Positions 1,130 through 60,248 of a DNA stretch of 64,000 nucleotides are shown here, in pieces (positions within the stretch are counted from its first letter, which is position 1; each line of letters begins with the position of its first letter). The notes under the pieces are model-generated. The model saw nothing but the letters and a program-made list of their open reading frames with translations, made no database searches and was not told where the DNA came from. Source of the DNA: a bacterium (GTDB lineage: Bacteria > Patescibacteriota > Minisyncoccia > Phycocordibacterales > VMGT01); assembly GCA_030697645.1 (NCBI GenBank), contig JAUYPI010000018.1:10457-74456 (forward strand), in the 5' to 3' direction. The position numbers and the translations under genes are program-made.

Positions 1130-1197
1130 TAAAGTTACGCGAATAATGGTAAACGTAGTATAGCAAAGCCGAGCATGGCACGGAAGCCCGCGAGGAA

Positions 1198-2118: not shown

Positions 2119-2184
2119 GGGTGGCAGTTTGCGAGCGTACCTTTCCCCTGCTCTAGTTTTCGTCGTGTTGGCTGCGGAATGTTG

Positions 2185-3135: not shown

Positions 3136-3139
3136 GGTT

Positions 3140-3384
3140 TACACAATGTTTACACAATTTCCAATTTCTAACTTCTGATTTTTGAGTACGGACTTACCTC
3201 AATTCGAAATCAGAAATTAAAAATCCGAAGTTGCGTTAGCAAAATTCGAATTTGCGTCAGCGGTTTGCACAATTTTCAATTTTCAAGGGCCCAATTTTCA
3301 AACACGACCGTCGTCGTTATTGAGTCATTGACACATTAAAAATTGATTGAAAATTGCAAAATTGAAAATTGGAAATTAAGTGAT
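3140..3384. repeat. Composite palindromic heptad-repeat region: a degenerate arm at 3140-3262 plus a canonical A-type palindrome at 3271-3377
   Basis: AATTTTCAATTTTCAA...CAAACACGACCGTCGTCG...ATTGAGTCATTGACACATT...GAAAATTGCAAAATTGAAAATT. It sits between two minus-strand sugar-nucleotide genes. Confidence 0.8.
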
Positions 3385-4158
3385 TTAGGCATTGACGACA
3401 TCACTGCGTCCGGAGAAAAGCGAAGCGCGCACATTTGAGACTGTCCGGAGCTGCTCTGGCGTGTTGACGCCGAGGACTTCTTCGGGGAGCGCGGCGGGCA
3501 GGGCGAGAATAGAGCGGCCGCGCCCGGTGAGCACGCGCACGGCGTCAGTGAGATAATACTCGCCGTTTGCGCTGTTCGGCCGGAGGTTTTTGAGCGCAGA
3601 AAAGAGCGCTCGCGCACGATAGCAGTAGGCGCCCGCGTTGATCTCGCGGATCTCTCGCTCCTCCTCAGTCGCGCTTTTCTCTTCTTCAATCCGCACAACG
3701 CGGCCCGAGGCGTTCCGGACGATGCGGCCGTAGCCGGTTGGATTATCGAGGAGGGCGGTAAGAAGTGCTCCTGTCGCGCGTGCCTTTCGGTGCGCGACAA
3801 AAAGGCGCGCGAGGGTCTCGGAGCGGATAAGCGGCGTATCGCCGTAGCGGATGAGGACGTCACCGTCAAATCCTTTGAGGAGGCTCTCGGTAATGGAGAC
3901 CGCATGCCCAGTGCCGCGCTGTTCCTCCTGTCTTATAAACTCAATAGGAAGCTCCGAGTACGCACGCACGGCCCCGGCGACTGCCTCGGCCCGATAGCCG
4001 ACGACGAGAATGACGCGCTGGGGTGCGAGCGGCACAATGGCTTCGAGCACATGCGCGATCAATGGCTTGCCATCGAGTTCGTGGCAGACTTTCGGGATGT
4101 CGCCACCCATACGGGTACCTTTACCCGCCGCAAGGATTATTACTGCAAGGGAGCGCAT
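3385..4158 (-). CDS. sugar-phosphate nucleotidyltransferase (GlmU N-terminal uridyltransferase-domain-like), with no acetyltransferase LbH domain
   Basis: LAAGKGTRM nucleotide-binding motif near the N-terminus. The length fits a single NTP-transferase domain. The start is taken at the Met preceding the motif. Confidence 0.7.
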   Translation of the reverse strand: MRSLAVIILAAGKGTRMGGDIPKVCHELDGKPLIAHVLEAIVPLAPQRVILVVGYRAEAVAGAVRAYSELPIEFIRQEEQRGTGHAVSITESLLKGFDGDVLIRYGDTPLIRSETLARLFVAHRKARATGALLTALLDNPTGYGRIVRNASGRVVRIEEEKSATEEEREIREINAGAYCYRARALFSALKNLRPNSANGEYYLTDAVRVLTGRGRSILALPAALPEEVLGVNTPEQLRTVSNVRASLFSGRSDVVNA

Positions 4159-4250
4159 AGAAAATATGCACTTTCTGTAACTTCGCACGCCTGTGCGACG
4201 CTACATGCCTGGGCGCTACTCTCGCGAGCCCGCGTGAGATACAATGCTTA

Positions 4251-4430
4251 GGCCCCGTCCATAAATACCTTCCCCATCTCGCACTCACTGCACGCCCTTA
4301 TCGAGCATCGTGCTCAATCGCGAAATCCTCATCGTATCTCGATACGTCTCGGATTCGCTCATTCCGCGCCAAGCTGCATCAGGCCATGCACTGAGCACGA
4401 TATTAGGGGAACTTATTTATGGACGGGGCC
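4251..4430. mobile_element. MITE-like structured element, copy 1, with 17-bp terminal inverted repeats (GGCCCCGTCCATAAATA ... TATTTATGGACGGGGCC)
   Basis: Perfect terminal inverted repeats read directly from the sequence. The internal 145 bp is about 90% identical, in reverse orientation, to the copy at 60669-60845, and contains further internal inverted repeats. Confidence 0.75.
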
Positions 4431-4436
4431 TTACTG

Positions 4437-5300
4437 ATGTTCGTCGGCTTTAAGAAAAATATTCGCTCCTACGCACTCGTGGCGCTTTTTGCCGTGACCG
4501 TCTTTGTCTGGTACGCCGCGCTCCGCGAGGAGCGCGGCGGCGTGCTCTCCGTGGCATTCCTCGACGTAGGGCAGGGCGACGCGGCCCTGATTGAGAGCCC
4601 GACTGGCCGCCAGGTGCTCATTGACGGCGGGCCGGGGAGGAGCGTGCTCCGCGCCTTGGGGCGCACTATGCCTTTCTTCGACCGCTCGATTGACGTCGTA
4701 ATTGCAACGCACCCAGACCAGGACCACATCGGCGGGCTGCCGGAGGTGCTTGCGCGCTATCGCGTTTCGCATATCCTCGAGCCGGGCGTCGCTGCGGACA
4801 CGGCCGTGTACGGTGCGTTTGCAGAGAGCGTCCGAATCGAGGGTGCGGAACACATACTCGCACGGCGCGGGCAGAAAATCGAGCTTGGCGGCGGGGCGTA
4901 CCTCGACATTCTCTTCCCGGACCGCGACGCAGGCGGCCTCGAGACGAATACCGCCTCTGTCGTTCTAAAGCTCACCTATGGCGCGACCTCATTCCTCCTC
5001 ACCGGCGACTCGCCGAAGCAAATCGAGGAATACCTCGCGGCGCTCGACGGCGAAGCGCTCGACGTTGACGTCCTAAAGGCCGGGCACCATGGCTCGAAGA
5101 CGTCGACGTCAGACTACCTCCTCGGCCTTGCCTCGCCTGCCTATGCCGTGATCTCGGCCGGGCATGACAACCGCTACGGCCATCCGCACCGGGAGGTGCT
5201 CGACGCACTGGCACGTTTCGGAGTCAAGCCCCTCGGCACGTATGAGCGAGGCACCATCATTTTTGAGAGCGACGGCAGGGAGGTGCGGCTGAAGAAATAG
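4437..5300 (+). CDS. ComEC/Rec2-family metallo-beta-lactamase domain protein (competence-related), with a single N-terminal TM
   Basis: VAFLDVGQGDAALIE, HPDQDHIGG and KAGHHGSKTSTS motifs match the ComEC C-terminal MBL domain. The ORF-track start at 4419 lies inside the terminal repeat of the upstream element, so the next ATG is used. Confidence 0.8.
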   Translation: MFVGFKKNIRSYALVALFAVTVFVWYAALREERGGVLSVAFLDVGQGDAALIESPTGRQVLIDGGPGRSVLRALGRTMPFFDRSIDVVIATHPDQDHIGGLPEVLARYRVSHILEPGVAADTAVYGAFAESVRIEGAEHILARRGQKIELGGGAYLDILFPDRDAGGLETNTASVVLKLTYGATSFLLTGDSPKQIEEYLAALDGEALDVDVLKAGHHGSKTSTSDYLLGLASPAYAVISAGHDNRYGHPHREVLDALARFGVKPLGTYERGTIIFESDGREVRLKK

Positions 5301-6046: not shown

Positions 6047-6929
6047 GGAAAGGCGGCGGAGCCGCACCGCTCAAAACCGCAAAAGAACCTGGAGAAAAAC
6101 ATCGGCTCGCCTGCCCGCCTCTGGAGGGAACCATATTTTAATTTTGGGGGAAGAAAATTTTTTAATCCTATGAATAAGAAGGTTACTTTTTTTATAGGTT
6201 TATTAGGATATATATTCGCGGGAATAATAGCGCGATTAGTTTTTAGTAAATCTTCTTTTTATCCAGGGTTAGGATTACAGACTGCCGACTACTCAATTGC
6301 CAATTTAGCTTTTCTATCAATTATTCCCGCGATAATTTTTGTATTGTTTTTTTTCATTTTTCATTATCTATTTAAAGATAGAGAAAATATTATTTTAAAG
6401 TCAAGCGGTTTTATTTTAGTATTTTCTTCTATCTCAATTTATATATGGCGTACACTTTTAGTTTTTGGAATAGGTAGTAATGATCTTCCTATCGATCCAA
6501 TAATAGGATTATTGGGATTTGTTGGAACGCTTACGACATTTATTTATCTCTCCTATCATTCTCTCCGTCTTTATAAAAGTAGCAGCCGTTTATGGGTAGC
6601 CGAACTGATTGCATCAATAGTTGTTTTAGTATCAGGGACTATTTTTAGTGCTTCTGAGTTGTCATATGTAGGTCTAGTCTTACTACCTGCGAGCCTCGTA
6701 TTTTTCCTATTTTCTTTTTTCACCCTACTTATTAAATCATGGAGAGAAACACATAAGTCATCATTTTTCTTCTCTATTCTTGGTCTACTCGTCATAATTT
6801 TCTCAACAGGGCTAGTTTTTGTCATTAAAGTACTTTCCGAATGTTGCCACTGATTATTAACAACTTTTAAGATGGGTCGCCGCCAAAGAAAAATTGGAAA
6901 TTGTTATCGGTGCGGCTCCGCCGCCTTTC
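6047..6929. mobile_element. AT-rich inserted segment bounded by perfect 23-bp inverted repeats (GGAAAGGCGGCGGAGCCGCACCG / CGGTGCGGCTCCGCCGCCTTTCC), 24 bp downstream of tRNA-Ile
   Basis: The inverted repeats were read directly at 6047-6069 and 6907-6929. The enclosed DNA is ~30% GC against ~60% flanking. Confidence 0.6.
6170..6853 (+). CDS. hypothetical multi-pass membrane protein (AT-rich, probably foreign)
   Basis: Six or more hydrophobic segments and Ile/Phe/Leu/Lys-rich composition. It lies inside the inverted-repeat-bounded segment. Confidence 0.55.
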   Translation: MNKKVTFFIGLLGYIFAGIIARLVFSKSSFYPGLGLQTADYSIANLAFLSIIPAIIFVLFFFIFHYLFKDRENIILKSSGFILVFSSISIYIWRTLLVFGIGSNDLPIDPIIGLLGFVGTLTTFIYLSYHSLRLYKSSSRLWVAELIASIVVLVSGTIFSASELSYVGLVLLPASLVFFLFSFFTLLIKSWRETHKSSFFFSILGLLVIIFSTGLVFVIKVLSECCH

Positions 6930-51352: not shown

Positions 51353-51613
51353 TTATCCATACAATCGATCATGCGGGCCGATTTCGACAAAAACGACCGT
51401 GTCGCGATCGAGCTGTTTAAAAATGACTCGTAGGTCCCCGCCGACATTAAAGCCCCGGTACCCATCATATTTCCCGGCGAGCGGATGATTGTTGAGCAAC
51501 GGATGGAATTGATCCGCCAAAAAAAGATCGCGTCGCTCCTTGAATTTTCTTTTCTCGGCAAGACGGAGCAGCCGATACCTCTTCTCAAAACGCCTATGGA
51601 GAATAATAATCAT
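51353..51613 (-). CDS. RelE/ParE-superfamily toxin (YafQ-like)
   Basis: 86 aa. HPLAGKYDGYRGFNVGGDLRVIF...VFVEIGPHDRLY matches the RelE/YafQ pattern. It overlaps the upstream antitoxin gene (ATGA). Confidence 0.75.
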   Translation of the reverse strand: MIIILHRRFEKRYRLLRLAEKRKFKERRDLFLADQFHPLLNNHPLAGKYDGYRGFNVGGDLRVIFKQLDRDTVVFVEIGPHDRLYG

Positions 51614-51885
51614 AGCGCGTCGAGGTAGGCGTCCATTTTCGCGGCACTCGTAAACGCGGGCGAAAAATTTTTCTTCCTGCGAATATCACGATCAACGTCC
51701 ACCAACAGCCGCTCGAGCTCCGGCGACATGCGGGGGATAGTGGCGGCATACAGCGCTCGGCTCCGAATAAATTGGCGGAGCTGCGCATTCATCACCGCGG
51801 AGAGGGAGAGACCGAGCTCTCCCGCGATCTGCTGCGCGTTTTCTTTCACTTCCCGATCTGCCTTAATGTGAATGATTGTTTTCAT
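51610..51885 (-). CDS. RelB/DinJ-family antitoxin
   Basis: Small ribbon-helix-helix-like N-terminus (IHIKADREVKENAQQIAGELGLSLSAVMNAQLRQF). Translationally coupled to the toxin. Confidence 0.7.
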   Translation of the reverse strand: MKTIIHIKADREVKENAQQIAGELGLSLSAVMNAQLRQFIRSRALYAATIPRMSPELERLLVDVDRDIRRKKNFSPAFTSAAKMDAYLDAL

Positions 51886-51943: not shown

Positions 51944-53173
51944 TCACACCACAATTTCTTCCCCTTTGTAGTGCCGCAGCGTCGGGAGCGCGCGGGCGAC
52001 GAGGAGTGTCGCGACGAGCGTCCCTATGCCGCCCGCGACGACCGAGAACGGTGCCGACGTCGCCGCGGCGAGAAGCCCGGCCTCGGCATCCCCGAGCTTC
52101 GGTCCCCCTGCTGCAAACAGAAGATTGATGCCGACCATCCGGCCCCGGAGGCGCCCGGGCGTCAGTGTGTGTCGAATCGTATTGCGCAGGATAACGCTCA
52201 CCATGTCGCCTGCCCCCGCGAGCGCGAGCAGCGCGAGCGAGAGATAAAAGGAACGTGAGAGCCCGAACCCGATCGTTGCAATGCCGTAGACGCTGACCGC
52301 TACAAGTATAATCCGCCCCTGATGTTCTATGTGTTTCAGGCCGGACAGCGCAAGTCCCGCAAGAATGGCGCCTGCGGACGTCGCCGCGTAGAGGATCCCA
52401 AGCCCCCGGGCGTCCACCGCGAGAATGTCCAGCGCGAAAATAGGCAGGAGCGACGTTGCGGATCCGAAAAACGTGGCAAAAAAATCGAGGAGGGTTGTCG
52501 AGAAAATAATCTTTGAGTTTTTGACGAATCGCACCCCTTCCACAAACGAGTGCACGCTAAATGACGCCCGTGCCTCGGCGTGGTGTGGGCGAATGTTGAG
52601 CGGGATAATGGTGAGTATCATCGCGACGAGCGCAACGCTGTTAAAGAAATAAATACTCTGCACGCCGTAGAGCGCGATGAGAAAGCCGGCGATCGCGGGG
52701 CCGACGATAACCGCTGCCTGCCGCGCGAGCGTGTTTAAGCTGACCGCGTTAAGAAGGTGCGTCTTGGGGATCAAATCTGGGATGATGGATTGCCGCACCG
52801 GCCCAAAGAAAGCCATCGCAGCAAAATTGCATGCCACCAGCGCAAAGAGCAGCGCCGGAGAAACTGCGCTAGACGCTGTTGTGAGAGCGAGGGTGAGAGC
52901 AACGAGGGCCAGGAAGACCTGGGTGGCAACCAAGAGTTTCTTTCTGTTCACGGTGTCCGCCGCGATCCCACCGACGCTCGAAAGCAGAAGAATCGGCAGA
53001 AAACTCACGACACCGATGAGCCCGAGCATCACGGCGGAGCGGGTCATCTCATACATCTGCCAGCTGATCGCAATAGCCTGCATCTGGGAACCCATCTGCG
53101 AGACAAAAAAGCCGGCGAGAAAGAGCCGGTATTCCCTGATGGAGAGTGACGAAAAAGGGGAAAGTTTTTTCAT
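51944..53173 (-). CDS. MFS-family transporter
   Basis: Twelve predicted TM helices with MFS-like loop motifs. The start is set at MKKLSPF; the ORF-track upstream extension is GC-rich leader. Confidence 0.8.
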   Translation of the reverse strand: MKKLSPFSSLSIREYRLFLAGFFVSQMGSQMQAIAISWQMYEMTRSAVMLGLIGVVSFLPILLLSSVGGIAADTVNRKKLLVATQVFLALVALTLALTTASSAVSPALLFALVACNFAAMAFFGPVRQSIIPDLIPKTHLLNAVSLNTLARQAAVIVGPAIAGFLIALYGVQSIYFFNSVALVAMILTIIPLNIRPHHAEARASFSVHSFVEGVRFVKNSKIIFSTTLLDFFATFFGSATSLLPIFALDILAVDARGLGILYAATSAGAILAGLALSGLKHIEHQGRIILVAVSVYGIATIGFGLSRSFYLSLALLALAGAGDMVSVILRNTIRHTLTPGRLRGRMVGINLLFAAGGPKLGDAEAGLLAAATSAPFSVVAGGIGTLVATLLVARALPTLRHYKGEEIVV

Positions 53174-53192
53174 AAAAAATAAGGTAACGAAC

Positions 53193-53335
53193 GGAGGAGG
53201 TGGCATTGAACCTCGTCGCTCCGCTCCTCGCTCAGAACCCACGGTTCTAAACAGCTCCCCCCAGCCCTCTCTAGCGGGAAGGGCTGGGTCGCTGCTCTCC
53301 TGCACGGGGAACTCCCGTCTTCGGCGGGGCTCCCT
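53193..53335 (+). repeat. GC-rich tRNA-Ser-related repeat, copy 1 (partial)
   Basis: Shares GGAGGAGGTGG, ACCCACGGTT and CACGGGGAACTCCCGT blocks with 56171-56303. It flanks an AT-rich islet. Confidence 0.5.
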
Positions 53336-53336
53336 T

Positions 53337-53708
53337 CTACATAGTAGCCCTATATGCCTTTATCCTATCCTTATCTTCGTTTTCCGATTCACCCTTGAAA
53401 TAAATCTCAATAAACTCGACCTTCAGTGTTTGGACATGGAAAGCGTAGATGATCCTGATCCCACTTTTCACTCCACGTCCCTTCAATGCCTTACAAGCAA
53501 ATTTTTTGAGTTTGCAAATTAGAACCTCGTCAGTACAGAATTGCGGCATCGGGAAGATTGCCTGCTTATTGATCTTTTGGGTGTGGTAAAGCTCAGTGGC
53601 GAACGCCTTGGCAACCTCAATATCTTCGTTGAGGGAGTGAAATTTCTTGAGAAGTCTCTTGAGATCACGCTCAAATTCTTCCGTGGAGCTATAAGTCAGT
53701 TTCGTCAT
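53337..53708 (-). CDS. RelE/ParE-fold toxin (ParE_toxin-like)
   Basis: C-terminal LKGRGVKSGIRIIYAFHVQTLKVEFIEIYFKG resembles the ParE/RelE core (Y-R-I-I-Y ... hydrophobic ... K). It overlaps the upstream HTH-antitoxin gene by 20 nt. ~35% GC. Confidence 0.55.
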   Translation of the reverse strand: MTKLTYSSTEEFERDLKRLLKKFHSLNEDIEVAKAFATELYHTQKINKQAIFPMPQFCTDEVLICKLKKFACKALKGRGVKSGIRIIYAFHVQTLKVEFIEIYFKGESENEDKDRIKAYRATM

Positions 53709-54468
53709 AGATCCGTACGGAAGTTTCCGGAGTTCGATAAAAGACAGATTCGTATTTTATGATTTGCCCCTCTTCGGTCCCAAGCCAGGGCACATCTTTA
53801 TGAGAGTAGTCGCTCAATTCAGTCGCGGTTTTATCGGAAAGTCGAGAAAGCACTTCGTCTATATGTTTGATTTCTTGGGCATTTAGGACGGAAATATCAG
53901 CATCTCTTCGCGGAAGATACTTGGTTTGCTCGTGTTGAAAATACTTGCTCTTGACCGTCTCTAGTTCGCCTTTCTTCTCCATTGACTCAACGATCTTCTT
54001 AAACTCAACTGGAGTCGGTCCGAAATGATTCCGTGTGTATGTTGCTCCAATGAGCTGTTCTTCAAACTTTTCGTAAAAATCAAAGTCAATAAAGTAGAGT
54101 AGCTTATACAGCACCGTCATACCGACATTTGGTTTACTGCCGACTTTCTTAAGTATATAAAGCAAAACCTCCTTGAACTTTTTAACATGACGTTGGGGCA
54201 CATCAATACGCATCTCCTGTTTCGGGGAGCTGTGGGCTTTTTCACTTAAAGAAACTTTGACGTCCGGAGCTACCTTGCCTGCAATCAGATCTGAAAATGA
54301 AATATTAAAAATTTGGGCGATCTTGTTCGCCTGGGAGAGAGTGAGTTCTTTTGCCCCCTTCTCAATTTCTATATAACTCGCACGAGAAACACCGATTTTA
54401 TCAGCCACAAAAGCCTGCGAAAGCCCCTGCTTATTACGCAGTTCTAGTAGAAAATAGTGCTTAATCAT
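53689..54468 (-). CDS. XRE-family HTH fused to a Panacea (DUF4065, SocA-like) antitoxin domain
   Basis: N-terminal HTH (LRNKQGLSQAFVADKIGVSRASYIEIEKG). The C-terminal VLYKLLYFIDFDFYEKFEEQLIGATYTRNHFGPTPVEF matches the DUF4065/Panacea pattern. Confidence 0.65.
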   Translation of the reverse strand: MIKHYFLLELRNKQGLSQAFVADKIGVSRASYIEIEKGAKELTLSQANKIAQIFNISFSDLIAGKVAPDVKVSLSEKAHSSPKQEMRIDVPQRHVKKFKEVLLYILKKVGSKPNVGMTVLYKLLYFIDFDFYEKFEEQLIGATYTRNHFGPTPVEFKKIVESMEKKGELETVKSKYFQHEQTKYLPRRDADISVLNAQEIKHIDEVLSRLSDKTATELSDYSHKDVPWLGTEEGQIIKYESVFYRTPETSVRIYDETDL

Positions 54469-54650
54469 GGTTTGAGTATAGCAAACGGGAATAAGTTGTC
54501 AAGTATTCCGACAATCTAACTGTTGATAATCTTGACAACGAAAATGCGAGGAGTAAAATAGCAAAAGAGTGGCACTGTTGCGGCAGTAACCACTCGATCA
54601 TTCGGAAAGGCTTTTTAGCCCTTTGGGGCCTTCCGGCCTATCTCTGCACA

Positions 54651-54929
54651 ATGCGATCCAACAATTTCATTCTAACAGACCTAGACTCATTAACAAACAA
54701 GGGTTATAAACTTCTTCACAAAATGCCCTATTACACTCGTAATACTGGCAAACCGTGGAAGGCACAAGACGTTTCCCAACTCAGGCAACTGATTCATCAA
54801 AATGCCCCGACGCGGGTAGCCGGATTCAAACTTGGGAGAACTGATGATGCAGTCAGGGCCGAGGCAAGCAAAATAGGCCTCAGTCTCAAACCGGCAAATC
54901 AGTCCCCGTACACTCGCCGTAAGTCGTAG
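54651..54929 (+). CDS. hypothetical small protein (AT-rich islet)
   Basis: ORF with no recognisable motif. Confidence 0.35.
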   Translation: MRSNNFILTDLDSLTNKGYKLLHKMPYYTRNTGKPWKAQDVSQLRQLIHQNAPTRVAGFKLGRTDDAVRAEASKIGLSLKPANQSPYTRRKS

Positions 54930-55003
54930 GTAATAAAAGAGGAGCAGAGCCGCAACCTGCTCCTCTTTTATTTCCCAGATTTAGTTCGATTATCTTGTTT
55001 GCA

Positions 55004-55468
55004 TTACCGATTTCCTTTTGCCCGGTTGTGTGTTTTGCACAACATCTGGCAATTTTCGACGATAGTTTTACCGCCTTCATGCCAAGGAGTAATGTGATCT
55101 GCTTCCATTTCTGAAATATCGTACTTCTTCTTACAAAATGGGCAAATACCATTTTGCCGCTCGTATGCTTCGCGCTTCATCTTGTCGGTAAAAGCACGGA
55201 TTGAAAGATAGTTCTCTCGTCTTGTCAGAACATACGGATAAATACCGGATTTTTTGGTAACATCCTCGTCTTGCATTAACTCTTTAATTTCGGTTTCCAG
55301 TTTAGCGGCGTTTAGTTTCTTATCTTTGTATTGGTTGTGTAGTTCTCCCCAATTTACATGCGCCATTTCATGTCGATAATTTGGAAAAGTTTTTCGCACC
55401 CACGCAATCACATCTTGGAAGTATTGCCACAACTCATCAGCATTTCTGTCGTGCTGATGTTTGGCCAT
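55004..55468 (-). CDS. HNH-family nuclease domain protein (DUF1524 / McrA-like His-Me finger), probably a remnant of a larger defence gene
   Basis: CPFCKKKYDISEMEADHITPWHEGGKTIVENCQMLCKTHNRAKGN is an HNH motif with Cys-pairs and an H-N-N/H arrangement. Confidence 0.7.
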   Translation of the reverse strand: MAKHQHDRNADELWQYFQDVIAWVRKTFPNYRHEMAHVNWGELHNQYKDKKLNAAKLETEIKELMQDEDVTKKSGIYPYVLTRRENYLSIRAFTDKMKREAYERQNGICPFCKKKYDISEMEADHITPWHEGGKTIVENCQMLCKTHNRAKGNR

Positions 55469-55559
55469 ATAATCTTCTATTTTGCCGTCATTTATCCATG
55501 AAAGCGTGGTTTCTAAGTATTCTTGCCGGATTGGTGAGCCGCTAACTAATTGTCCGCCG

Positions 55560-55916
55560 TCATTCGCTAACAGATACGCCGCACAGTTTGATTTGCTGAA
55601 TTTTAAAGATTTCTTTGTAAGTAATCGCGTTTTGATTACCCATAATTAAGAACTTTTTCTTGTGCTTTACTAGTTGAGCAACATATTCACGGAATAAAGA
55701 AAATGGAGGGTTGGTTATGACTATATCGGATTGCTTGAGTGATTCGATGCATTCGTCGCTCCGAAAGTCACCACTACCACGCAGAGGGGTTGCGGTGTTC
55801 TTGTCGTGTTTGAGCAAATACTTAACGTCATCAAGATTTATCGCTCCATCCTTGTCGATATCCGGCACTTTTGTAATTTCAATTTTGAAAGGTTGTTTGC
55901 CTTTTGATCCAGCCAC
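55560..55916 (-). pseudogene. fragment of an N6-adenine DNA methyltransferase (motif IV only)
   Basis: VITNPPF catalytic motif in a 118-aa ORF with no motif I or target-recognition domain. Different frame from the downstream HNH ORF. GTG start. Confidence 0.5.
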
Positions 55917-56060
55917 TTCAAATAACGGTAATTGCCCTCCAACAATCGGTGAACCGCTGTAGCTTGTAGTGATGAGCTTTTTCAGCCCGAGAGCGTTGAA
56001 ATTAGATGCAAAGTATTTGAAAAAGTTGCTCTCATGTGGATCATCGCAATTACAATATTA

Positions 56061-56162
56061 TTTCAAGAGCTCGTCGCTTGTTACTCCCAACGCTTGGGCG
56101 ATTTTTTCAATGGTGGCAAGCGTGGGATTGCCTTTGCCTGCCTCAATATTGCTCATTTTTTC
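56061..56162 (-). pseudogene. C-terminal fragment of an XRE-family HTH regulator
   Basis: The minus-strand translation MSNIEAGKGNPTLATIEKIAQALGVTSDELLK is the second half of a Cro/C1-type HTH, with no N-terminal half. Confidence 0.5.
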
Positions 56163-56170
56163 AATTTTGG

Positions 56171-56303
56171 CGGAGGAGGTGGGATAGAACCGTTTGGAAA
56201 CCCACGGTTTTCCAACGTTCGCTCACTCCGTTCGCTCACTGCCTTCCTCCACGGGGAACTCCCGTTCCCCGACCCCCTCCCGTTCGAATCCCACCTCCTC
56301 TCG
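56171..56303 (+). repeat. degenerate tRNA-Ser-like sequence (pseudo-tRNA / att-like repeat copy 2)
   Basis: 5' GGAGGAGGTGGGATAG and 3' CCCGTTCGAATCCCACCTCCTC resemble the ends of the adjacent tRNA-Ser, but the T-stem cannot pair and about 60 extra nt lie in the middle. Confidence 0.5.
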
Positions 56304-56333
56304 CAAAATATATTCGCTGCGCTCGGTATTTTG

Positions 56334-56417
56334 CGGTGGAGGTGGTATTCGAACCCACGAGGCCTTGCGGCCGGCTGTTTTCAAAACAGCTGGAATAAAC
56401 CACTATCCGACTCCTCC
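56334..56417 (-). tRNA. tRNA-Ser (anticodon TGA), long variable arm
   Basis: Minus strand: acceptor GGAGGAG/CTCCACC (one A.A mismatch), anticodon stem-loop GCTGT-TTTGAAA-ACAGC, variable arm CGGCCGCAAGGCCTC, T-arm GTGGGTTCGAATACCAC, discriminator G. Confidence 0.8.
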
Positions 56418-56455
56418 AGTGTGTATGGAATGTGTGATAGTATAGCATGGAGCGC

Positions 56456-56905
56456 ATGAGATTTTTAGGCATTGACTATGGCACGAAACACGTTGGGATC
56501 GCGATTTCCGATGAGCGGGGAGCGGTTGCGTTTCCGAAGGCGGTGCTTGTGAACATTCCCGGCGTCGTTGATGAGATCGCAGCTCTGGCGCAGGCGGAGG
56601 GAGTTCAGGGCGTCGTGGTCGGAGAATCGCGTCGCGCGGATGGGGGAGAGAATGCGCTTCAGCGCGAGATAGTTCGATTTAAACACACGCTCGAGAGCGC
56701 GCTGCCGGGCGTGTCTGTTTCTCTACAGCACGAGGGGATGAGTACGCAGAGCGCGCGGGTGGCGCCTAAGGCGCGGCGTGGCGTTCTCTCGCGAGAGCGC
56801 CGCGCTCCGGCGGCCGCGGCGCGTCGGCGTGAGCCCGCTGATGCTCGTGCCGCGGCAGTGATTTTACAGCGGTTTCTTGATCGACAGTCTCACACTAAAA
56901 GCTAG
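56456..56905 (+). CDS. ruvX: RuvX/YqgF-family putative pre-16S rRNA nuclease (Holliday-junction-resolvase-like)
   Basis: FLGIDYGTKHVGIAISD N-terminal RNase H-like motif and conserved acidic residues. Arg-rich C-terminal tail. Confidence 0.8.
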   Translation: MRFLGIDYGTKHVGIAISDERGAVAFPKAVLVNIPGVVDEIAALAQAEGVQGVVVGESRRADGGENALQREIVRFKHTLESALPGVSVSLQHEGMSTQSARVAPKARRGVLSRERRAPAAAARRREPADARAAAVILQRFLDRQSHTKS

Positions 56906-56930
56906 AAGCTAACAGCTAAAAGCTAAGTCC

Positions 56931-57254
56931 GTGGTTTCCTTCGACGATTTTCAAAAACTTGATGTTCGCATCGGTACCATTGTTTCTGCCGAGCGCGTCG
57001 TGGGGAGCGACAAACTCCTCAAGCTCACCGTGGATATCGGGGAGTCCTCACCGTGCCAGATCATTGCCGGCATCGCGGCGTTCGTTCGGCCCGAGGCGCT
57101 TGTCGGAGCGCAGTGTCCGTTCGTGGCAAACCTTGAGCCGCGGATGATTCGCGGCCTCGAGAGCCAAGGGATGCTTCTCGCGATAGACGCGGAGGAGGGA
57201 TTCGCACTCCTCCACCCGAGCCGTGCTGTAGCGACAGGCAGCAGGGTACGGTAG
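56931..57254 (+). CDS. tRNA-binding domain protein (CsaA / Trbp111 / EMAP-like OB-fold)
   Basis: FQKLDVRIGTIVSAE...KLLKLTVDIGE...QIIAGI...LVG...VANLEPRMIRG.ESQGMLL matches the Myf/tRNA-binding domain. Confidence 0.75.
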   Translation: MVSFDDFQKLDVRIGTIVSAERVVGSDKLLKLTVDIGESSPCQIIAGIAAFVRPEALVGAQCPFVANLEPRMIRGLESQGMLLAIDAEEGFALLHPSRAVATGSRVR

Positions 57255-57370
57255 TCCAGTGGCAACTGTGTATCCGGTGGACAATGAATCCGCGATTCAG
57301 ATGTCCCCCCGTCATTTCTAAATCCGAAGTCTGGATATGGAGATCAAACATACCCAGAATACCAAGCTCG

Positions 57371-57510
57371 AATTTCCAAATTCCAAAAAACAAGTTCCAA
57401 ACAAATCACAATACTCAAAATCCAATTTCCAAACACGACGTGCGTGTTTGGGATTTGATGCATTGAAATTTGAAATTTGTTTGGAACTTGTTGGTTGGAG
57501 CTTGGAGTTT
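57371..57510. repeat. Palindromic heptad-repeat element, B-type, upstream of pilM
   Basis: AATTTCCAAATTCCAAAAAACAAGTTCCAAACAAATCACAATACTCAAAATCCAATTTCCAAACACGACGTGCGTGTTTGGGATTTGATGCATTGAAATTTGAAATTTGTTTGGAACTTGTTGGTTGGAGCTTGGAGTTT. Confidence 0.85.
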
Positions 57511-57668
57511 ATGACTCGGAGTCTCGGGTCGGCAATTTCGTTATTCACCGTGCTCATATTCTTGCTCCACTCGAATGCGGGAAGCGTACGAGGTTCTCAA
57601 CAGGCGCATGGTAGAGCTCGCTCACGCGGCGCGGTATACTAGAGGTGCGGCAGACCTTTGCCTCTACC

Positions 57669-58811
57669 ATGGCAGCTACAGTGCTCACTCACACGCCTGC
57701 GCTCCGCGGCGCCTCTCTCGGTGATCGGATTCTTGACTGGTTTCCGGCGCCGAAACTGCTTGCGCTGCCTGCAATAGGCATTGACATCTCAGAGAGCGCC
57801 GTTCGCTACATAGAGCTTTGCCGTACGGCAGCAGGCGTGAGGCTTGGTTCCTTTGGCGACATTGCTCTTGGAGCAGGCACATTCCAGAGTGGCGGCATCG
57901 CAGATCGTGCACGGGTCGTGGACGCGCTGCGGCGCGTGCGCAGCGTGATCCGTACTCCCTACGTGTGGGCTTCTCTACCGACTGAGAGGGCATACATTTT
58001 CGAGGTCGCACTGCCATCGCGCACTATTGGATATGCTGATCTGCGGCGAACGATTGAGTTCCACCTCGAGGAGCACGTGCCGCTTGCCTCACGTGACGCT
58101 ATCATCGATGTTGTCACCGCAGATCTGCTCGCCCCCTTGGCCGGGGCCGCCGTCGTTGCAGTGCCGGCTACACTGGCCGAGGAGTATCTCGGCGTTTTTC
58201 ATGAGAGCGGGCTGCGCCCGCTCTCGCTTGAAGTCGCTGCGGAGGCCGTAGCGCGCGCTCTTGTGGTCCCCGGGGATGCCGAGACCGTCCTCATCCTGCG
58301 TATGGGGAGCGACCGTACGTCCCTCATCTTCGCCCGCTCTGCGGTGGCGTTGTTCGCCTCGACGATTGAGTTTGGTGGAGCGGCGCTTACGGCCGCGCTC
58401 GCACATGAGCTCGGGATCGTCGTGGATGAGGCGGAGCGTCTTAAGCGCGAGAGCGGGCTCATCGCGAGTGCGGAGAATAAGCGCATCTCTACGACGCTCG
58501 GCGAGCATGTAGGCGTTCTTGTCAAGGAGGTCGCGCGTTACATCGGGTACTGGAGTACGCACGGAGCCGAGACGCCGAGCGGCGAGGCTCTAAAAGCTGG
58601 CCGGCAGGGCGTCTCCCGCGTGTATCTCTGCGGCGGCGGGGCAAATCTTCGCGGTCTCGCGTCACATCTCAGCTCCGCGCTCGCTCTCCCGGTCTCTCTT
58701 GCCGATGTGTGGACGAGCTGTTTTTCGCTCGACGAGTATATTCCGACGCTCCCGCGGCACGAATCACTGGCGTATTGCGCTGCAGTCGGCCTTGCCCTCC
58801 GAGGGCTGTGA
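57669..58811 (+). CDS. pilM: type IV pilus assembly protein PilM (actin-like ATPase fold). An alternative GTG start lies at 57645
   Basis: AIGIDISESAVRYIEL N-terminal sugar-kinase/actin-fold motif and C-terminal LCGGGANLRGL. It is followed by a pilN-like gene. Confidence 0.75.
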   Translation: MAATVLTHTPALRGASLGDRILDWFPAPKLLALPAIGIDISESAVRYIELCRTAAGVRLGSFGDIALGAGTFQSGGIADRARVVDALRRVRSVIRTPYVWASLPTERAYIFEVALPSRTIGYADLRRTIEFHLEEHVPLASRDAIIDVVTADLLAPLAGAAVVAVPATLAEEYLGVFHESGLRPLSLEVAAEAVARALVVPGDAETVLILRMGSDRTSLIFARSAVALFASTIEFGGAALTAALAHELGIVVDEAERLKRESGLIASAENKRISTTLGEHVGVLVKEVARYIGYWSTHGAETPSGEALKAGRQGVSRVYLCGGGANLRGLASHLSSALALPVSLADVWTSCFSLDEYIPTLPRHESLAYCAAVGLALRGL

Positions 58812-58835: not shown

Positions 58836-59393
58836 ATGTCAAATCTTCTTCCGATAGTAGAAAAACGATTATTGCTGCGCGAGTATCGGCTCCGCACGGG
58901 AATCGCGATCCTGTATTTTCTCGGAGCGCTTGCGGCGATCGGCGCCGTTGCGCTCATCCCCTCGCTCGTGCGCGTCCACTCGCTCGTTTCCTCGGTGGAG
59001 CGTGCGCGACAATTCGAGGAGAAAACCCTTGAGCAACTCGGCGCCTCCGCTGTCGCACATGGCTTCCGGGAAGCGAACGAGGAACTTGCCTCACTCGCGT
59101 CTATCCTCACAGAGCCCGAGCTCGCGGTTCTCGTGCATACCGTTGCGGTCGTTCGTCCTGCCAGCGTTTCTATTCAGAGCATTGCGTATGAACCGAAGGG
59201 CGATGGAGCTGGATCGCTTACCCTCGGCGGTACGGCGATGCTTCGGGATGATCTGCTGCAGTTCGTCGAGGCGCTCCGGCGCGAGGCGGCGTTCGTCGCC
59301 GTCAATCTTCCGATCGGCGCCCTCGCGCGTGAGCGCGACGCGAATTTCACTATTTCGGTTAAGCTTGCGGAGAAGGAGCGGACGGGGGAGTGA
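58836..59393 (+). CDS. pilN: type IV pilus assembly protein PilN
   Basis: MSNLLPIVEKRLL, the NLLP motif at the N-terminus, and a single TM. A GAGGAG ribosome-binding site lies 8 nt upstream. Confidence 0.75.
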   Translation: MSNLLPIVEKRLLLREYRLRTGIAILYFLGALAAIGAVALIPSLVRVHSLVSSVERARQFEEKTLEQLGASAVAHGFREANEELASLASILTEPELAVLVHTVAVVRPASVSIQSIAYEPKGDGAGSLTLGGTAMLRDDLLQFVEALRREAAFVAVNLPIGALARERDANFTISVKLAEKERTGE

Positions 59394-59487
59394 GATGTGC
59401 AGGACGCAAGGCCTGAAAGCCGATGTTCCCAAATAATCAATAAGCAAGATATAAAAAGTTCAAATGCCAAAATCGAAATGTCAACGA

Positions 59488-59612
59488 AATTTTCAATTTT
59501 GCAATTTTCAATCAATTTTGCAATGACACAATTTTCAAACACGACGTCGTCCGTCATTGAGCATTGAAACATTGAAAATTCATTGAAAATTGCAAAATTG
59601 AAAATTGTAAAT
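59488..59612. repeat. Palindromic heptad-repeat element, A-type, upstream of the pilO-like gene
   Basis: AAATTTTCAATTTTGCAATTTTCAATCAATTTTGCAATGACACAATTTTCAAACACGACGTCGTCCGTCATTGAGCATTGAAACATTGAAAATTCATTGAAAATTGCAAAATTGAAAATTGTAAATT. Confidence 0.85.
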
Positions 59613-59708
59613 TCTTGGACTTGATTTGACATTTGGCATTAATGCACGGTCACATTTTTGGTGTTTGGCGACTTGTATATTTGCTATTTTGATTTGTACT
59701 TTGTATCC

Positions 59709-60248
59709 ATGGGTTACAAGCAACAATTTTTTCTCGCGCTCTCGGTGGGCATCGTCGCGCTTGCACTTCTCGTTAGTGAGCTCGCGGCGATCCGCAGCGG
59801 CAGAGCGCGTCTCGCGTTCACGCTCGAGGCGATATCTGCCCTCGAGCACGAGCGTGAGGCGCTCGACGCGACACGTTCACTCGCGGAGAGAACGGCGAGA
59901 GATCGCGCGGCGCTCGACGAGAAGTTTATACCGCGCGACGGAGTCGTCGCGTTTTTGAAACGCATTGAGGATTTGGGGAAACGCTCGGGCACAACACTTG
60001 CGGTCGAGACCCTCTCGGCTGCCTCCCCCATATCATCGGAGGCATCACTTGAAGACATGGCGCTCCGTTTTACCGCTCTCGGAGCGTTTCAGAACATTGT
60101 GCACCTGCTGGCGCTCGTTGAGTCTCTGCCGGTGGCCGCAGAGGTCACCTCCGCGCGTCTCGAGGCTGCACCCGCCGGTGAGGAGGGCGCCTCCTTGTGG
60201 CGGACGACCGTTTTTCTTCACGCGCTCAAGAAGCGCGACGCACAATAA
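59709..60248 (+). CDS. pilO: PilO-like type IV pilus assembly protein
   Basis: Single N-terminal TM then a coiled-coil and periplasmic domain. Position after pilM and pilN. Assigned by architecture only. Confidence 0.5.
   Translation: MGYKQQFFLALSVGIVALALLVSELAAIRSGRARLAFTLEAISALEHEREALDATRSLAERTARDRAALDEKFIPRDGVVAFLKRIEDLGKRSGTTLAVETLSAASPISSEASLEDMALRFTALGAFQNIVHLLALVESLPVAAEVTSARLEAAPAGEEGASLWRTTVFLHALKKRDAQ

What the first reader, a model, noticed from the sequence alone, without database searches (positions are those of the whole stretch)
53193..56417. AT-rich defence/addiction islet beside tRNA-Ser, flanked by degenerate tRNA-Ser-like GC-rich repeats
Between the MFS transporter and tRNA-Ser(TGA) lies ~2.8 kb of ~35% GC DNA. 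It carries five elements. (1) A ParE/RelE-fold toxin (53337-53708) overlapping an HTH-XRE::Panacea (DUF4065) antitoxin (53689-54468). (2) A small hypothetical. (3) An HNH / DUF1524-like nuclease (55004-55468). (4) A frame-disrupted DNA-methyltransferase fragment containing only the NPPF motif (55560-55916). (5) A 33-aa remnant of an HTH regulator (56061-56162). The islet is bracketed by two GC-rich repeats sharing GGAGGAGGTGG, ACCCACGGTT and CACGGGGAACTCCCGT. The right copy (56171-56303) has tRNA-Ser-like 5' and 3' ends but a broken T-stem, and lies tail-to-tail 30 nt from the real tRNA-Ser. This is the pattern of a tRNA-targeting integrative element that has decayed, leaving a Panacea-type toxin-antitoxin module as the only intact unit. 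Panacea antitoxins pair with many different toxins, so this particular toxin partner may be an undescribed pairing.
Basis: partly seen in the sequence, partly recalled or inferred. Interest (0 to 1): 0.7.

Follow-up and report, generated by a model that had tools for sequence, protein, structure and literature searches.

The report
Toxin-antitoxin islet beside tRNA-Ser
A 2.8-kb patch of foreign DNA next to a serine tRNA gene in a candidate-phyla-radiation bacterium holds one working-looking toxin-antitoxin pair and a wrecked restriction-modification operon. That part is ordinary, but the GC-rich "repeats" around it belong to an apparently undescribed folded element that follows tRNA genes in these bacteria.

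Summary
The islet is real. It spans 53,320-56,170 at 42.4% GC (not ~35%), against ~59% GC in the flanking genes.

- **Toxin-antitoxin pair.** HTH-Panacea antitoxin (Pfam PF13274, E 4e-18) with a 123-aa toxin. The toxin has no Pfam hit, but its model matches only RelE/ParE-fold structures, best V. cholerae HigB2. The pair is a sharply bounded 1.2-kb cassette found in at least four other CPR contexts.
- **Pairing type already catalogued.** Panacea with HigB2-like toxins appears in Kurata et al. 2022, Dataset S1.
- **One dead operon, not three elements.** The "HNH nuclease", "methylase fragment" and "HTH remnant" are the collapsed remains of a single operon: control protein, EcoRI-like methylase, DUF262-HNH restriction enzyme. 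All three genes are truncated.
- **The closest relative found has different cargo.** It shares the backbone up to window 56,168 and carries another restriction-modification system beyond that point.
- **The right repeat is conserved backbone.** It belongs to a covariation-supported structured element that lies 22-209 nt downstream of tRNA genes and has arms that mimic the tRNA 3' end. The left repeat is a truncated second copy.
- **No integrase is present.**

Verdict: a cargo hotspot holding a new member of a known toxin-antitoxin kind. The tRNA-trailing element is the novel lead.

The parts
53192..53323 (-). Left GC-rich repeat: a 5'-truncated second copy of the tRNA-trailing structured element. 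It retains the tRNA-3'-like arm (GGTTCAATGCCACCTCCTCCG on the - strand) and two internal hairpins. It lacks the inverted arm.
   Evidence: Aligns with the right copy at 62% over 128 nt and with the species-B copy at 60%. It shares two exact motifs with the right copy. 66% GC. Covariance model R1 does not detect it, consistent with truncation.
53324..54537 (-). Self-contained toxin-antitoxin cassette: promoter, panA-like gene and toxin gene.
   Evidence: DNA homology to four unrelated CPR contexts starts at 54537 (54544 for L001) and ends at 53324-53358. Identity is 82% to L090/L094 and 71% to L001/L007.
53337..53708 (-). 123-aa toxin of the RelE/ParE superfamily, HigB2-like; predicted ribosome-dependent mRNA endonuclease.
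   Evidence: No Pfam, NCBIfam or PADLOC hit. AlphaFold2 model pLDDT 84.8. Foldseek PDB hits are almost all RelE/ParE-fold toxins, best HigB2 8a0x_C at E 3.4e-4. Profile against PDB sequences: HigB-2 E 0.028. At least 1098 homologues and 664 clusters at 50% identity. Invariant K66, K68, K69, R78, R85, Y88, Y103, K105.
53689..54468 (-). 259-aa antitoxin: N-terminal Cro/C1-type HTH plus C-terminal Panacea (SocA_Panacea/DUF4065) domain.
   Evidence: PF13274 E 4e-18 (residues 120-228); HTH_3 E 1.7e-13 (residues 8-61). A 257-259-aa HTH_3 + SocA_Panacea protein (same Pfam domains) sits upstream of every toxin homologue examined.
54475..54559 (.). Divergent sigma-70-like promoters. Their -35 boxes lie inside an 8-nt inverted repeat (TTGTCAAG 54496-54503 / CTTGACAA 54531-54538), a candidate operator for the HTH domain.
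   Evidence: Both promoters match 11 of 12 consensus positions. The inverted repeat was read from the sequence. The operator role is inferred.
54651..54929 (+). 92-aa ORF of unknown function, weakly similar to phage HTH DNA-binding regulators. Followed by a bidirectional terminator hairpin at 54929-54975.
   Evidence: No Pfam or NCBIfam hit. phrog_323 E 6e-7. Hairpin is 19 nt, 95% complementary. No homologue in any fetched locus except the same organism.
55004..55603 (-). 3' part (~205 codons) of a DUF262(GmrSD_N)-HNH type II restriction endonuclease gene. The N-terminal DUF262 domain has been deleted.
   Evidence: 80-87% identical to more than 100 proteins of 363-369 aa that carry PF03235 + PF01844. 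PADLOC REase_II PDLC03418 positions 169-371 of 372, E 2e-66. Deletion breakpoint at 55603.
55603..56057 (-). Internal fragment of an EcoRI-like N6-adenine DNA methyltransferase gene.
   Evidence: PF13651 positions 37-182 of 345, E 2e-61. PADLOC MTase_II positions 45-173 of 332. Colinear with L203 365-829.
56058..56174 (-). C-terminal 32-38 codons of the HTH control protein of the same restriction-modification cassette, cut off at the junction with the right element.
   Evidence: HTH_3 positions 27-55 of 55, E 4.9e-8. The intact cassettes have a 65-74-aa HTH gene directly upstream of the methylase.
56170..56304 (-). Right GC-rich repeat: a complete tRNA-trailing structured element. Its 5' arm is the reverse complement of the tRNA-Ser 3' end, it has internal hairpins, and its 3' arm is a copy of the tRNA 3' end followed by CCA.
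   Evidence: Conserved in the related species; the backbone homology starts at 56168. Fold z-score is -5.8 on the + strand and -3.5 on the - strand. It is the only significant hit in the window to model R1, which was built without it (22.7 bits, E 2.8e-5).
56333..56417 (-). tRNA-Ser(TGA), with two pair-breaking changes in its 3' part (A61, A70).
   Evidence: ARAGORN. Rfam tRNA score 38.9 bits, against 49.6-55.7 bits for tRNA-Ser genes of relatives. All ~75 related tRNA-Ser genes have canonical 3' ends.

Best explanation
The region is a variable-cargo hotspot at the trailer of tRNA-Ser(TGA) in a Patescibacteria (CPR) genome. The only named relatives found, through the neighbouring MFS gene, are Sungbacteria and Saccharibacteria MAGs.

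**Cargo**
1. An intact, horizontally mobile 1.2-kb toxin-antitoxin cassette. The toxin is a HigB2-like member of the RelE/ParE superfamily and most likely cleaves mRNA on the ribosome. The antitoxin neutralises it by direct binding through its Panacea domain. Its HTH domain probably represses the operon at an inverted repeat over the -35 box. These mechanistic steps are inferred from the families; none was shown here.
2. A small HTH-like ORF with its own promoter.
3. The wreck of a three-gene type II restriction-modification operon (control protein, EcoRI-like methylase, DUF262-HNH endonuclease). It is inactivated by a 956-nt internal deletion and by truncations at its 5' end.

**The GC-rich 'repeats'**
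They are one complete and one truncated copy of a structured element that follows tRNA genes in CPR genomes. The complete copy is conserved backbone. Its outer arm is a copy of the tRNA 3' end, and it marks the exact point where cargo differs between related species.

**How the cargo arrived**
The cargo most likely entered by recombination at this tRNA-3'-like arm, catalysed by an enzyme encoded elsewhere. It was then eroded by deletions. The toxin-antitoxin pair survives because it is self-selecting.
For: - **Composition.** Islet 42.4% GC against 59% in the flanking genes.
- **Antitoxin domains**.
- **Toxin fold**.
- **Conserved pairing.** The same pair, with the same cassette ends, occurs in four other contexts.
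- **Intact restriction-modification cassette elsewhere.** Seen in L203-L207, with colinear breakpoints at window 55603 and 56058.
- **Synteny.** Backbone homology with the related species starts at 56168, with different low-GC restriction-modification cargo to the left.
- **Direct repeats.** Three direct copies of the tRNA 3' 21-mer.
- **Parallel case.** A DinJ-YafQ pair is bracketed by a tRNA-Ser 3' end and a 16-nt direct copy of it (≤2 mismatches) in L115/L142.
- **Structured element.** 24 predicted pairs, 16 with compensatory changes. Paired cells 84.4% against 68.3% in shuffles. Covariation 0.468 against 0.188, exceeded in 0 of 500 shuffles. Slid controls 0.10-0.15.
- **Independent detection.** A model built without the window finds 56170-56304.
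- **Position.** All 18 hits lie 22-209 nt downstream of a tRNA gene on the same strand.
Against: - No integrase, transposase or other recombinase lies in the islet, so the insertion mechanism is inferred.
- Both islet junctions cut through features (the HTH gene at 56170, the left element at about 53320). This fits illegitimate deletion as well as site-specific recombination.
- The related species has no second element copy at the far end of its island.
- No empty site could be reconstructed. Everything to the left of the element differs between the two species, and MFS relatives share no synteny.
- Toxicity, neutralisation and mRNA cleavage are untested. The toxin fails every sequence-profile library.
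- Most other copies of the structured element are followed by housekeeping genes. The element is therefore not an island marker in itself.
Confidence: 0.6

Rival explanations
1. One classical tRNA-targeting integrative element carried its own tyrosine integrase and inserted into tRNA-Ser. The two GC-rich repeats are its attL and attR. The integrase and most genes were later lost.
For: - Direct repeats of the tRNA 3' end flank the islet.
- The tRNA's own 3' end is aberrant, while the displaced copy at 56171-56191 is canonical. That is the pattern expected if an element-borne copy replaced the original end.
- The cargo is foreign, low in GC and variable between species.
Against: - No integrase or fragment of one is present.
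- The right repeat is conserved in a related species that carries different cargo. It belongs to a family present after many tRNA genes that have no island.
- The repeats are only 62% identical over 128 nt.
- The cargo is a patchwork of at least two independently mobile cassettes, each found alone elsewhere.
Confidence: 0.25
2. The islet was imported by homologous recombination, for example after natural transformation. The donor DNA came from another CPR lineage, and two copies of the tRNA-trailing element served as homology arms. No site-specific recombinase was involved.
For: - The left copy shares features with the species-B version that the resident right copy lacks: the TTCAAT variant of the arm and a CCCAGC...GCTGGG hairpin.
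- A PilM-type competence or pilus gene lies nearby at 57645-58811.
Against: - Identity between the copies (60-62%) is low for homologous recombination.
- The left copy is truncated and abuts the toxin gene directly.
- No donor arrangement of element, cargo, element was found in any fetched locus.
Confidence: 0.12
3. The low-GC segment is an assembly chimera of a metagenome-assembled genome and not part of this chromosome.
For: The sequence comes from a MAG. There is a sharp GC step.
Against: - An independent Logan assembly contig (L009, 10.6 kb) carries the same MFS, left repeat, toxin-antitoxin pair, orf92 and restriction-enzyme fragment arrangement.
- The related species has an analogous low-GC island at the same junction, seen in five contig records from different samples.
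Confidence: 0.03

Closest known systems
PanAT toxin-antitoxin systems (Panacea/DUF4065 antitoxins; Kurata et al. 2022, PMC8832971), especially cluster T14, whose toxins HHpred assigns to HigB-2
   Same: A Panacea-domain antitoxin is encoded first and overlaps a small toxin by a few to ~20 nt. The toxin has a RelE/ParE (HigB2-like) fold. An N-terminal HTH occurs in 343 PanA sequences in that study.
   Different: The listed T14 members are archaeal (Methanobacteriaceae) and lack the HTH domain. This family is from CPR bacteria, which were not found in that dataset's held text (one file is truncated). Sequence relatedness to T14 could not be tested. Neither pairing has been validated experimentally.
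Vibrio cholerae HigB2 (HigBA2 system; PDB 5ja8, 5jaa, 8a0x)
   Same: Best structural match (Foldseek E 3.4e-4, probability 1.0, TM 0.46-0.59) and best sequence-profile match. The shared motif is KG(K/R)G..(G/S)G.RIIY.F...(L/F).(T/E)IY.K.E.
   Different: Only 18-23% identity. The partner antitoxin here is HTH-Panacea rather than HigA2. Catalytic residues were not mapped.
Genomic islands integrated in tRNA genes (the Islander paradigm, PMC4383910) and tandem accretion at tRNA sites; tycheposons (bioRxiv 10.1101/2020.12.28.424599)
   Same: Foreign cargo lies next to a tRNA 3' end. Displaced direct copies of the tRNA 3' end are present. Different cargo occupies the same site in relatives.
   Different: There is no integrase. 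The proximal 'repeat' is a conserved structured element rather than a simple tRNA fragment. The comparison with tycheposons rests on that paper's abstract and my own knowledge; its text was not read.
Type II restriction-modification operons with a control (C) protein
   Same: The gene order HTH, methylase, endonuclease is seen intact in L203-L207. PADLOC calls the parts MTase_II and REase_II.
   Different: All three genes are truncated here, so the system is dead.
tRNA-like structures and acceptor/T-arm minihelices (the closest analogy for the flanking element)
   Same: The terminal helix is made of the tRNA acceptor and T-stem 3' strand paired with its complement. It is often followed by G-CCA.
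   Different: There is no D arm or anticodon arm. About 100 nt of conserved hairpins and junctions sit where the T-loop would be. No Rfam 15 family matches.

Membership tests
Panacea (PanA / SocA_Panacea, PF13274) antitoxin | Panacea/DUF4065 domain above the Pfam gathering score | tested here: met
   PF13274 66.8 bits (cut-off 25.7), E 4e-18, profile positions 1-112 of 113
Panacea (PanA / SocA_Panacea, PF13274) antitoxin | Conserved two-gene arrangement with a small partner gene | tested here: met
   The same 257-259-aa HTH-Panacea gene overlaps the toxin homologue in 5 of 5 contexts
Panacea (PanA / SocA_Panacea, PF13274) antitoxin | Neutralises its cognate toxin by forming a complex | not testable with these tools
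   Requires co-expression and pull-down. Shown for other PanAT pairs in PMC8832971.
RelE/ParE superfamily toxin | RelE/ParE fold (N-terminal strand, two-helix hairpin, antiparallel sheet) | tested here: met
   Model pLDDT 84.8. Secondary-structure order is strand, two helices, four strands, helix. The top 45 Foldseek PDB hits are RelE/ParE-fold toxins apart from one ribosome-bound chain at rank 36.
RelE/ParE superfamily toxin | Match to a curated sequence profile (ParE_toxin PF05016, YafQ, HigB and similar) | tested here: not met
   No Pfam, NCBIfam or PADLOC family at E <= 0.1. The only sequence-level signal is HigB-2 at E 0.028 in a profile search of PDB sequences.
RelE/ParE superfamily toxin | Ribosome-dependent mRNA cleavage (RelE branch) or gyrase poisoning (ParE branch) | not testable with these tools
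   Invariant Lys, Arg and Tyr residues and the HigB2 similarity favour the RelE branch. This is inference only.
tRNA-targeting integrative element (genomic island) | Integrase gene at one end | tested here: not met
   No integrase domain in any ORF between 53173 and 56333
tRNA-targeting integrative element (genomic island) | Direct repeat of the tRNA 3' part at the distal end | tested here: met
   21-mers at 53192, 56171 and 56334; the copies at 56171 and 56334 are 90% and 76% identical to the reference copy at 53192
tRNA-targeting integrative element (genomic island) | Absent from the same site in related genomes | tested here: inconclusive
   The related species lacks this cargo but has other cargo at the same junction. 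No empty site was found.
Type II restriction-modification system | Full-length methylase and endonuclease genes | tested here: not met
   The methylase covers profile positions 37-182 of 345. The endonuclease covers positions 169-371 of 372. A 956-nt deletion lies at 55603.
Any described RNA family (Rfam 15), for the GC-rich repeat | Covariance-model match | tested here: not met
   No hit covering the right repeat (56170-56304) and none at the left repeat at E <= 10; the only hit touching it is a chance-level sX4 match (56289-56417, 18.9 bits against a gathering score of 70) that mostly overlies the tRNA. No hit at family members in L119, L127, L169, L161 or L120 at E <= 1, other than chance microRNA matches.

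The most novel reading that the evidence does not exclude
The GC-rich 'repeat' belongs to an undescribed class of structured elements, about 95-170 nt long. Each lies 22-209 nt downstream of a tRNA gene (Ser, Val, Arg, Tyr or Lys) on the same strand in CPR bacteria. The outer helix is built from a copy of that tRNA's 3' end paired with its reverse complement. The interior hairpins covary.

The element could be a processed non-coding RNA that mimics the acceptor/T-arm minihelix. More provocatively, it could be a folded recombination site that lets integrase-less defence and toxin-antitoxin cassettes be slotted in next to tRNA genes.
Probability: 0.4. Interest if true: 0.75.

Novelty: new member of a known kind. 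Interest (0 to 1): 0.45.

Why it matters
- **The toxin-antitoxin pair.** It extends the Panacea antitoxin network to a large CPR-specific family of HigB2-like toxins (664 clusters at 50% identity). Sequence profiles miss this family, so defence and toxin-antitoxin censuses of these reduced genomes undercount it.
- **The cassette ends.** The sharply defined 1.2-kb ends, and the parallel dead restriction-modification cassette, show that small defence modules move between CPR lineages as discrete units, with no recognisable recombinase beside them.
- **The bigger lead.** The tRNA-trailing structured element sits exactly at the point where cargo differs between species. If it is a recombination site or a tRNA-mimicking RNA, it bears on how genomes with few recognisable mobile-element genes acquire accessory DNA.

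Tried and rejected
- **Empty site through the MFS gene.** Its four close relatives (65-70% identity) share no other synteny with the window and have no tRNA-Ser(TGA) beside the MFS gene.
- **Exact-protein look-up of RuvX.** Nothing on record. A homology search was needed instead.
- **Left flank of the related species' island.** It has no counterpart anywhere in the window, so the left boundary could not be set by synteny.
- **Second element copy at the far end of that island.** None was found, only an IS30-like transposase remnant identified by eye.
- **Phage carriage.** No relative of the toxin was found on IMG/VR viral contigs.
- **Retro-origin of the inverted arm** (as a primer-binding site for mature tRNA). 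Rejected, because the arm also copies the genomic trailer (GCAAAAT) rather than CCA.
- **Other identities for the element** (integron attC site, hammerhead or other ribozyme, tmRNA or RNase P fragment, T-box). The ribozyme, tmRNA, RNase P and T-box readings were rejected because no Rfam family matches and several copies occur per contig. The attC reading was set aside from my own knowledge of its motifs and was not tested with a tool.
- **DUF1524 assignment for the HNH ORF.** Not supported.
- **Literature searches** for a described CPR tRNA-trailing element found nothing relevant.

Full report

tRNA-Ser(TGA) lies at 56333-56417 on the minus strand. GC falls from about 59% in the MFS gene (51944-53173) and in RuvX-PilM (56447-58811) to 42.4% across 53337-56170. 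The window mean is 53.6%. The islet therefore exists, but it is not as AT-rich as the ~35% GC claimed.

The two GC-rich repeats are real:
- GGAGGAGGTGG occurs exactly at 53193 and 56172.
- CACGGGGAACTCCCGT occurs only at 53303 and 56250 in the 64-kb window, against 0.04 expected by chance.
- The copies align over about 128 nt at 62% identity, with indels.
- A 21-nt segment is present three times in direct orientation, at 53192, 56171 and inside the tRNA 3' end at 56334.

**2. The toxin-antitoxin pair**

The 259-aa protein (53689-54468, minus strand) has an N-terminal HTH_3 domain (E 1.7e-13) and a full-length SocA_Panacea domain (E 4e-18).

The overlapping 123-aa protein (53337-53708) matches nothing in Pfam, NCBIfam or PADLOC. 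It does have a large family:
- at least 1098 close homologues; the few that carry a taxonomic name are Patescibacteria, and some are labelled RelE by JGI;
- 664 clusters at 50% identity in an exhaustive search.

An AlphaFold2 model built from 25 family members (pLDDT 84.8) has the order strand, helix, helix, four strands, helix. Foldseek against the PDB returns RelE/ParE-fold toxins almost exclusively. V. cholerae HigB2 is best (E 3.4e-4), followed by RelE, YafQ, YoeB and ParE. A family profile searched against PDB sequences also picks HigB-2 first (E 0.028), through a shared KG.G..G.RIIY.F...IY.K.E motif. Invariant Lys, Arg and Tyr residues fit an mRNA endonuclease better than a ParE-type gyrase poison, but that is inference.

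In every other context examined, a 257-259-aa HTH-Panacea gene precedes and overlaps the toxin homologue:
- after dnaJ (L001);
- beside a Z1/ResIII/PDDEXK cluster (L007);
- beside a second Panacea module (L090);
- beside PAP2 and Obg genes (L094).

DNA homology to all four starts at window 54537 (54544 for L001), about 70 nt upstream of the start codon, so it includes the promoter. It ends at 53324-53358, at or just past the stop codon. The pair is therefore a discrete, mobile 1.2-kb cassette.

A sigma-70-like promoter (11 of 12 matches, with an extended -10 TG) drives the cassette. Its -35 box lies in one arm of an 8-nt inverted repeat. The other arm carries the -35 box of a divergent promoter for the 92-aa ORF. 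That the HTH domain binds this repeat is inferred.

No relative of the toxin was found on IMG/VR viral contigs.

**3. Is the pairing new?**

Kurata et al. 2022 (PMC8832971) report Panacea antitoxins paired with dozens of toxin folds, and 343 of their PanA sequences carry an HTH domain. Their Dataset S1 lists cluster T14 in Methanobacteriaceae. Its gene order is antitoxin then toxin, with overlaps of -8 to -17, and HHpred assigns its toxins to HigB-2 at 99.7%. Further clusters are assigned to RelE, YoeB or ParE. All are marked untested.

The kind of pairing is therefore catalogued. This CPR family, with the HTH-bearing antitoxin, is a new member. I could not retrieve T14 sequences to test direct relatedness.

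**4. The rest of the cargo is one dead restriction-modification operon**

The frame containing the "HNH ORF" is open for 213 codons (55007-55645). It is 80-87% identical, over 95-96% of its length, to more than 100 proteins, almost all of 363-369 aa, that carry DUF262/GmrSD_N plus HNH domains. PADLOC places it at positions 169-371 of a 372-position type II restriction-enzyme model (E 2e-66).

The methylase piece is a single open frame, 55563-56057. It matches EcoRI_methylase positions 37-182 of 345 (E 2e-61).

In the loci L203-L207 the intact arrangement is:
- an HTH control protein (65-74 aa);
- an EcoRI-like methylase (350-351 aa);
- a DUF262-HNH enzyme (363-369 aa).

Alignment of the window with L203 shows two colinear blocks. 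Window 56058-55603 corresponds to L203 365-829, and window 55603-55023 corresponds to L203 1786-2384. A 956-nt deletion at window 55603 therefore removed the 3' half of the methylase gene and the DUF262 domain of the nuclease. The first ~128 nt of the methylase gene are also missing. The control-protein gene survives only as its last 32-38 codons and is cut off at the junction with the right repeat.

The 92-aa ORF (54651-54929) is intact, has its own promoter and a bidirectional terminator, and resembles phage HTH regulators only weakly.

**5. Is the islet accessory?**

The four close relatives of the MFS gene (65-70% identity; Sungbacteria and similar MAGs) share nothing else with the window.

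The RuvX side was informative. A relative with 80% identical RuvX ("species B") is represented by five contig records from different samples (L098-L101 and L147). Four of them were compared with each other and are 99.7-99.9% identical; L147 carries an identical copy of the element. Species B is colinear with the window from 56168 rightwards, through the right repeat, tRNA-Ser, RuvX, a tRNA-binding protein and PilM, at 77-82% DNA identity.

To the left of that point species B has a 3.6-kb island of 33-43% GC. The island carries a LexA-like gene, an N6_N4 methylase and a HinfI endonuclease. A more distant relative has a Fic gene beside its tRNA-Ser.

The site is therefore a hotspot for defence-type cargo, and the synteny break coincides with the outer end of the right repeat. 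No empty site could be found. The left flank of the species-B island has no counterpart anywhere in the window.

**6. What the GC-rich repeats are**

The right copy folds into a long hairpin whose terminal stem has about 16 bp. The z-score is -5.8 on the plus strand and -3.5 on the minus, tRNA-sense, strand. Read on the tRNA-sense strand, its parts are:
- a 5' arm that is the reverse complement of the tRNA-Ser 3' end plus its genomic trailer;
- internal hairpins;
- a 3' arm that is a canonical copy of the tRNA 3' end (ATCCCACCTCCTCCG) followed by CCA.

The species-B copy keeps the same stems with different loops, and it has an extra hairpin that also occurs in the window's left copy.

A scan of metagenome contigs with the tRNA-Ser 5' 27-mer returned 100 CPR tRNA-Ser loci. 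In about a dozen of them an element of the same architecture follows the tRNA. These elements share internal motifs: GATTCGAAAGNCGGAGC, GAGTCGGGGT and GTGACCGAATC.

Structure support comes from nine members aligned without the window copy:
- a 24-pair consensus, with compensatory changes at 16 pairs, including helices that are not tRNA-derived;
- 84.4% of cells paired, against 68.3% in shuffles;
- covariation 0.468 against 0.188, exceeded in 0 of 500 shuffles; slid controls give 0.10-0.15;
- G-U pairs outnumber A-C mismatches 11 to 3 on the tRNA-sense strand. This modestly favours an RNA, or a single strand, of that polarity.

A covariance model built from these nine sequences finds one significant hit in the window, 56170-56304 on the minus strand (22.7 bits, E 2.8e-5). 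It gives 27 hits in the 100 loci.

All 18 hits examined lie 22-209 nt downstream of a tRNA gene on the same strand: Ser in 13 cases, Val in 2, and Arg, Tyr and Lys in one each. Their arms resemble that tRNA's own 3' end more than non-cognate ones (mean local score 13.1 against 9.2).

No Rfam 15 family matches. Most other copies are followed by housekeeping genes such as IF-2, TrxB and FtsZ, or the AcyP-UppS-RluD-L19 block. The element is therefore not simply an island scar.

The window's left copy lacks the inverted arm and the first hairpin strand, and it abuts the end of the toxin cassette at about 53320.

**7. How the islet probably arose**

*Shown.* The cargo is foreign. It is a patchwork of at least two cassettes that each occur alone elsewhere. 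It sits at a junction that is variable between species and is defined by a tRNA-3'-like arm. A truncated second element copy lies on its far side.

*Inferred.* Insertion happened by recombination at the tRNA-like arm, catalysed in trans, followed by deletions.

In favour of site-specific events:
- the three direct 21-mers;
- a DinJ-YafQ pair in L115/L142 that is bracketed precisely by a tRNA-Ser 3' end and a 16-nt copy of it (≤2 mismatches).

Against:
- there is no integrase;
- both junctions truncate features.

Homologous import using element copies as arms is possible, and assembly chimerism is unlikely. Both are scored as rivals.

**8. An oddity**

The window's tRNA-Ser has A61 and A70. These break the G53:C61 and 3:70 pairs. 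All ~75 related tRNA-Ser genes, including that of species B, are canonical. This fits replacement of the 3' end by an imperfect copy, but it could also be a consensus error in the MAG.

**9. Verdict**

As given, the finding is a new member of known kinds: a PanAT-type module and a tRNA-adjacent cargo hotspot. The flanking element is the part that deserves follow-up.

Noticed in passing
window 51353-51885 (-): A second type II toxin-antitoxin pair lies 60 nt beyond the MFS gene: a YafQ/ParE-family toxin (PF15738, E 3.5e-8) preceded by a weak RelB-like antitoxin. Its GC is 52%, intermediate between the islet and the backbone.
   Followed up: partly
window 56333-56354 (tRNA-Ser 3' end): The tRNA-Ser(TGA) carries A61 and A70, which break the near-universal G53:C61 pair and the 3:70 acceptor pair. 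All ~75 related tRNA-Ser genes are canonical. Its Rfam score is 38.9 bits, against 49.6-55.7 bits for tRNA-Ser genes of relatives.
   Followed up: partly
window 51944-53173 (-): The closest relatives of the MFS_3 transporter (65-70% identity) sit in unrelated gene contexts in other CPR MAGs. The next tier (37-45% identity) is mostly Chloroflexota, with some Myxococcota. The gene may itself be horizontally acquired cargo.
   Followed up: partly
L115 and L142 (tRNA-Ser and about 670 nt downstream): A DinJ-like/YafQ-like toxin-antitoxin pair (identified by eye from the translation) is bracketed exactly by the tRNA-Ser 3' end and a 16-nt direct copy of it (≤2 mismatches). No recombinase lies between them. 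This is a second case of a toxin-antitoxin cassette slotted in at a CPR tRNA-Ser.
   Followed up: no
L163 about 680-4500; window about 47-50.5 kb: In L163 the block acylphosphatase, UppS, RluD, L19, LAGLIDADG directly follows a structured element behind tRNA-Val(TAC). The same block occurs in the window's genome (seen in L009), but there a 210-aa ORF, the YafQ pair, the MFS gene and the islet separate it from the elements.
   Followed up: no
L147 about 6180-6330: The left border of the species-B island carries what looks like the C-terminal remnant of an IS30-family transposase (WQKGTNQHSD...). This was identified by eye only.
   Followed up: no
L090 5516-8372: Two Panacea modules lie in tandem. 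A 229-aa HTH-Panacea gene with 131-aa and 172-aa partners sits immediately upstream of the 259-aa HTH-Panacea gene and the HigB2-like toxin. A HicA-family toxin gene lies nearby.
   Followed up: no
L203-L207; window 55004-55603: The DUF262-HNH restriction enzyme is 80-87% identical at the protein level across many Patescibacteria lineages. Hits also include records labelled Nanoarchaeota and Chloroflexota. This suggests very recent and wide horizontal spread of the cassette.
   Followed up: no
L169 655-924: Two structured elements lie in tandem behind one tRNA-Ser(GGA). Each ends in a perfect copy of the tRNA 3' end.
   Followed up: partly
window 57250-57550 and 59350-59800: Two further short low-GC patches (42% and 37-40%) lie in otherwise ~60% GC backbone, between the tRNA-binding protein and PilM genes and further right. 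Their content was not examined.
   Followed up: no
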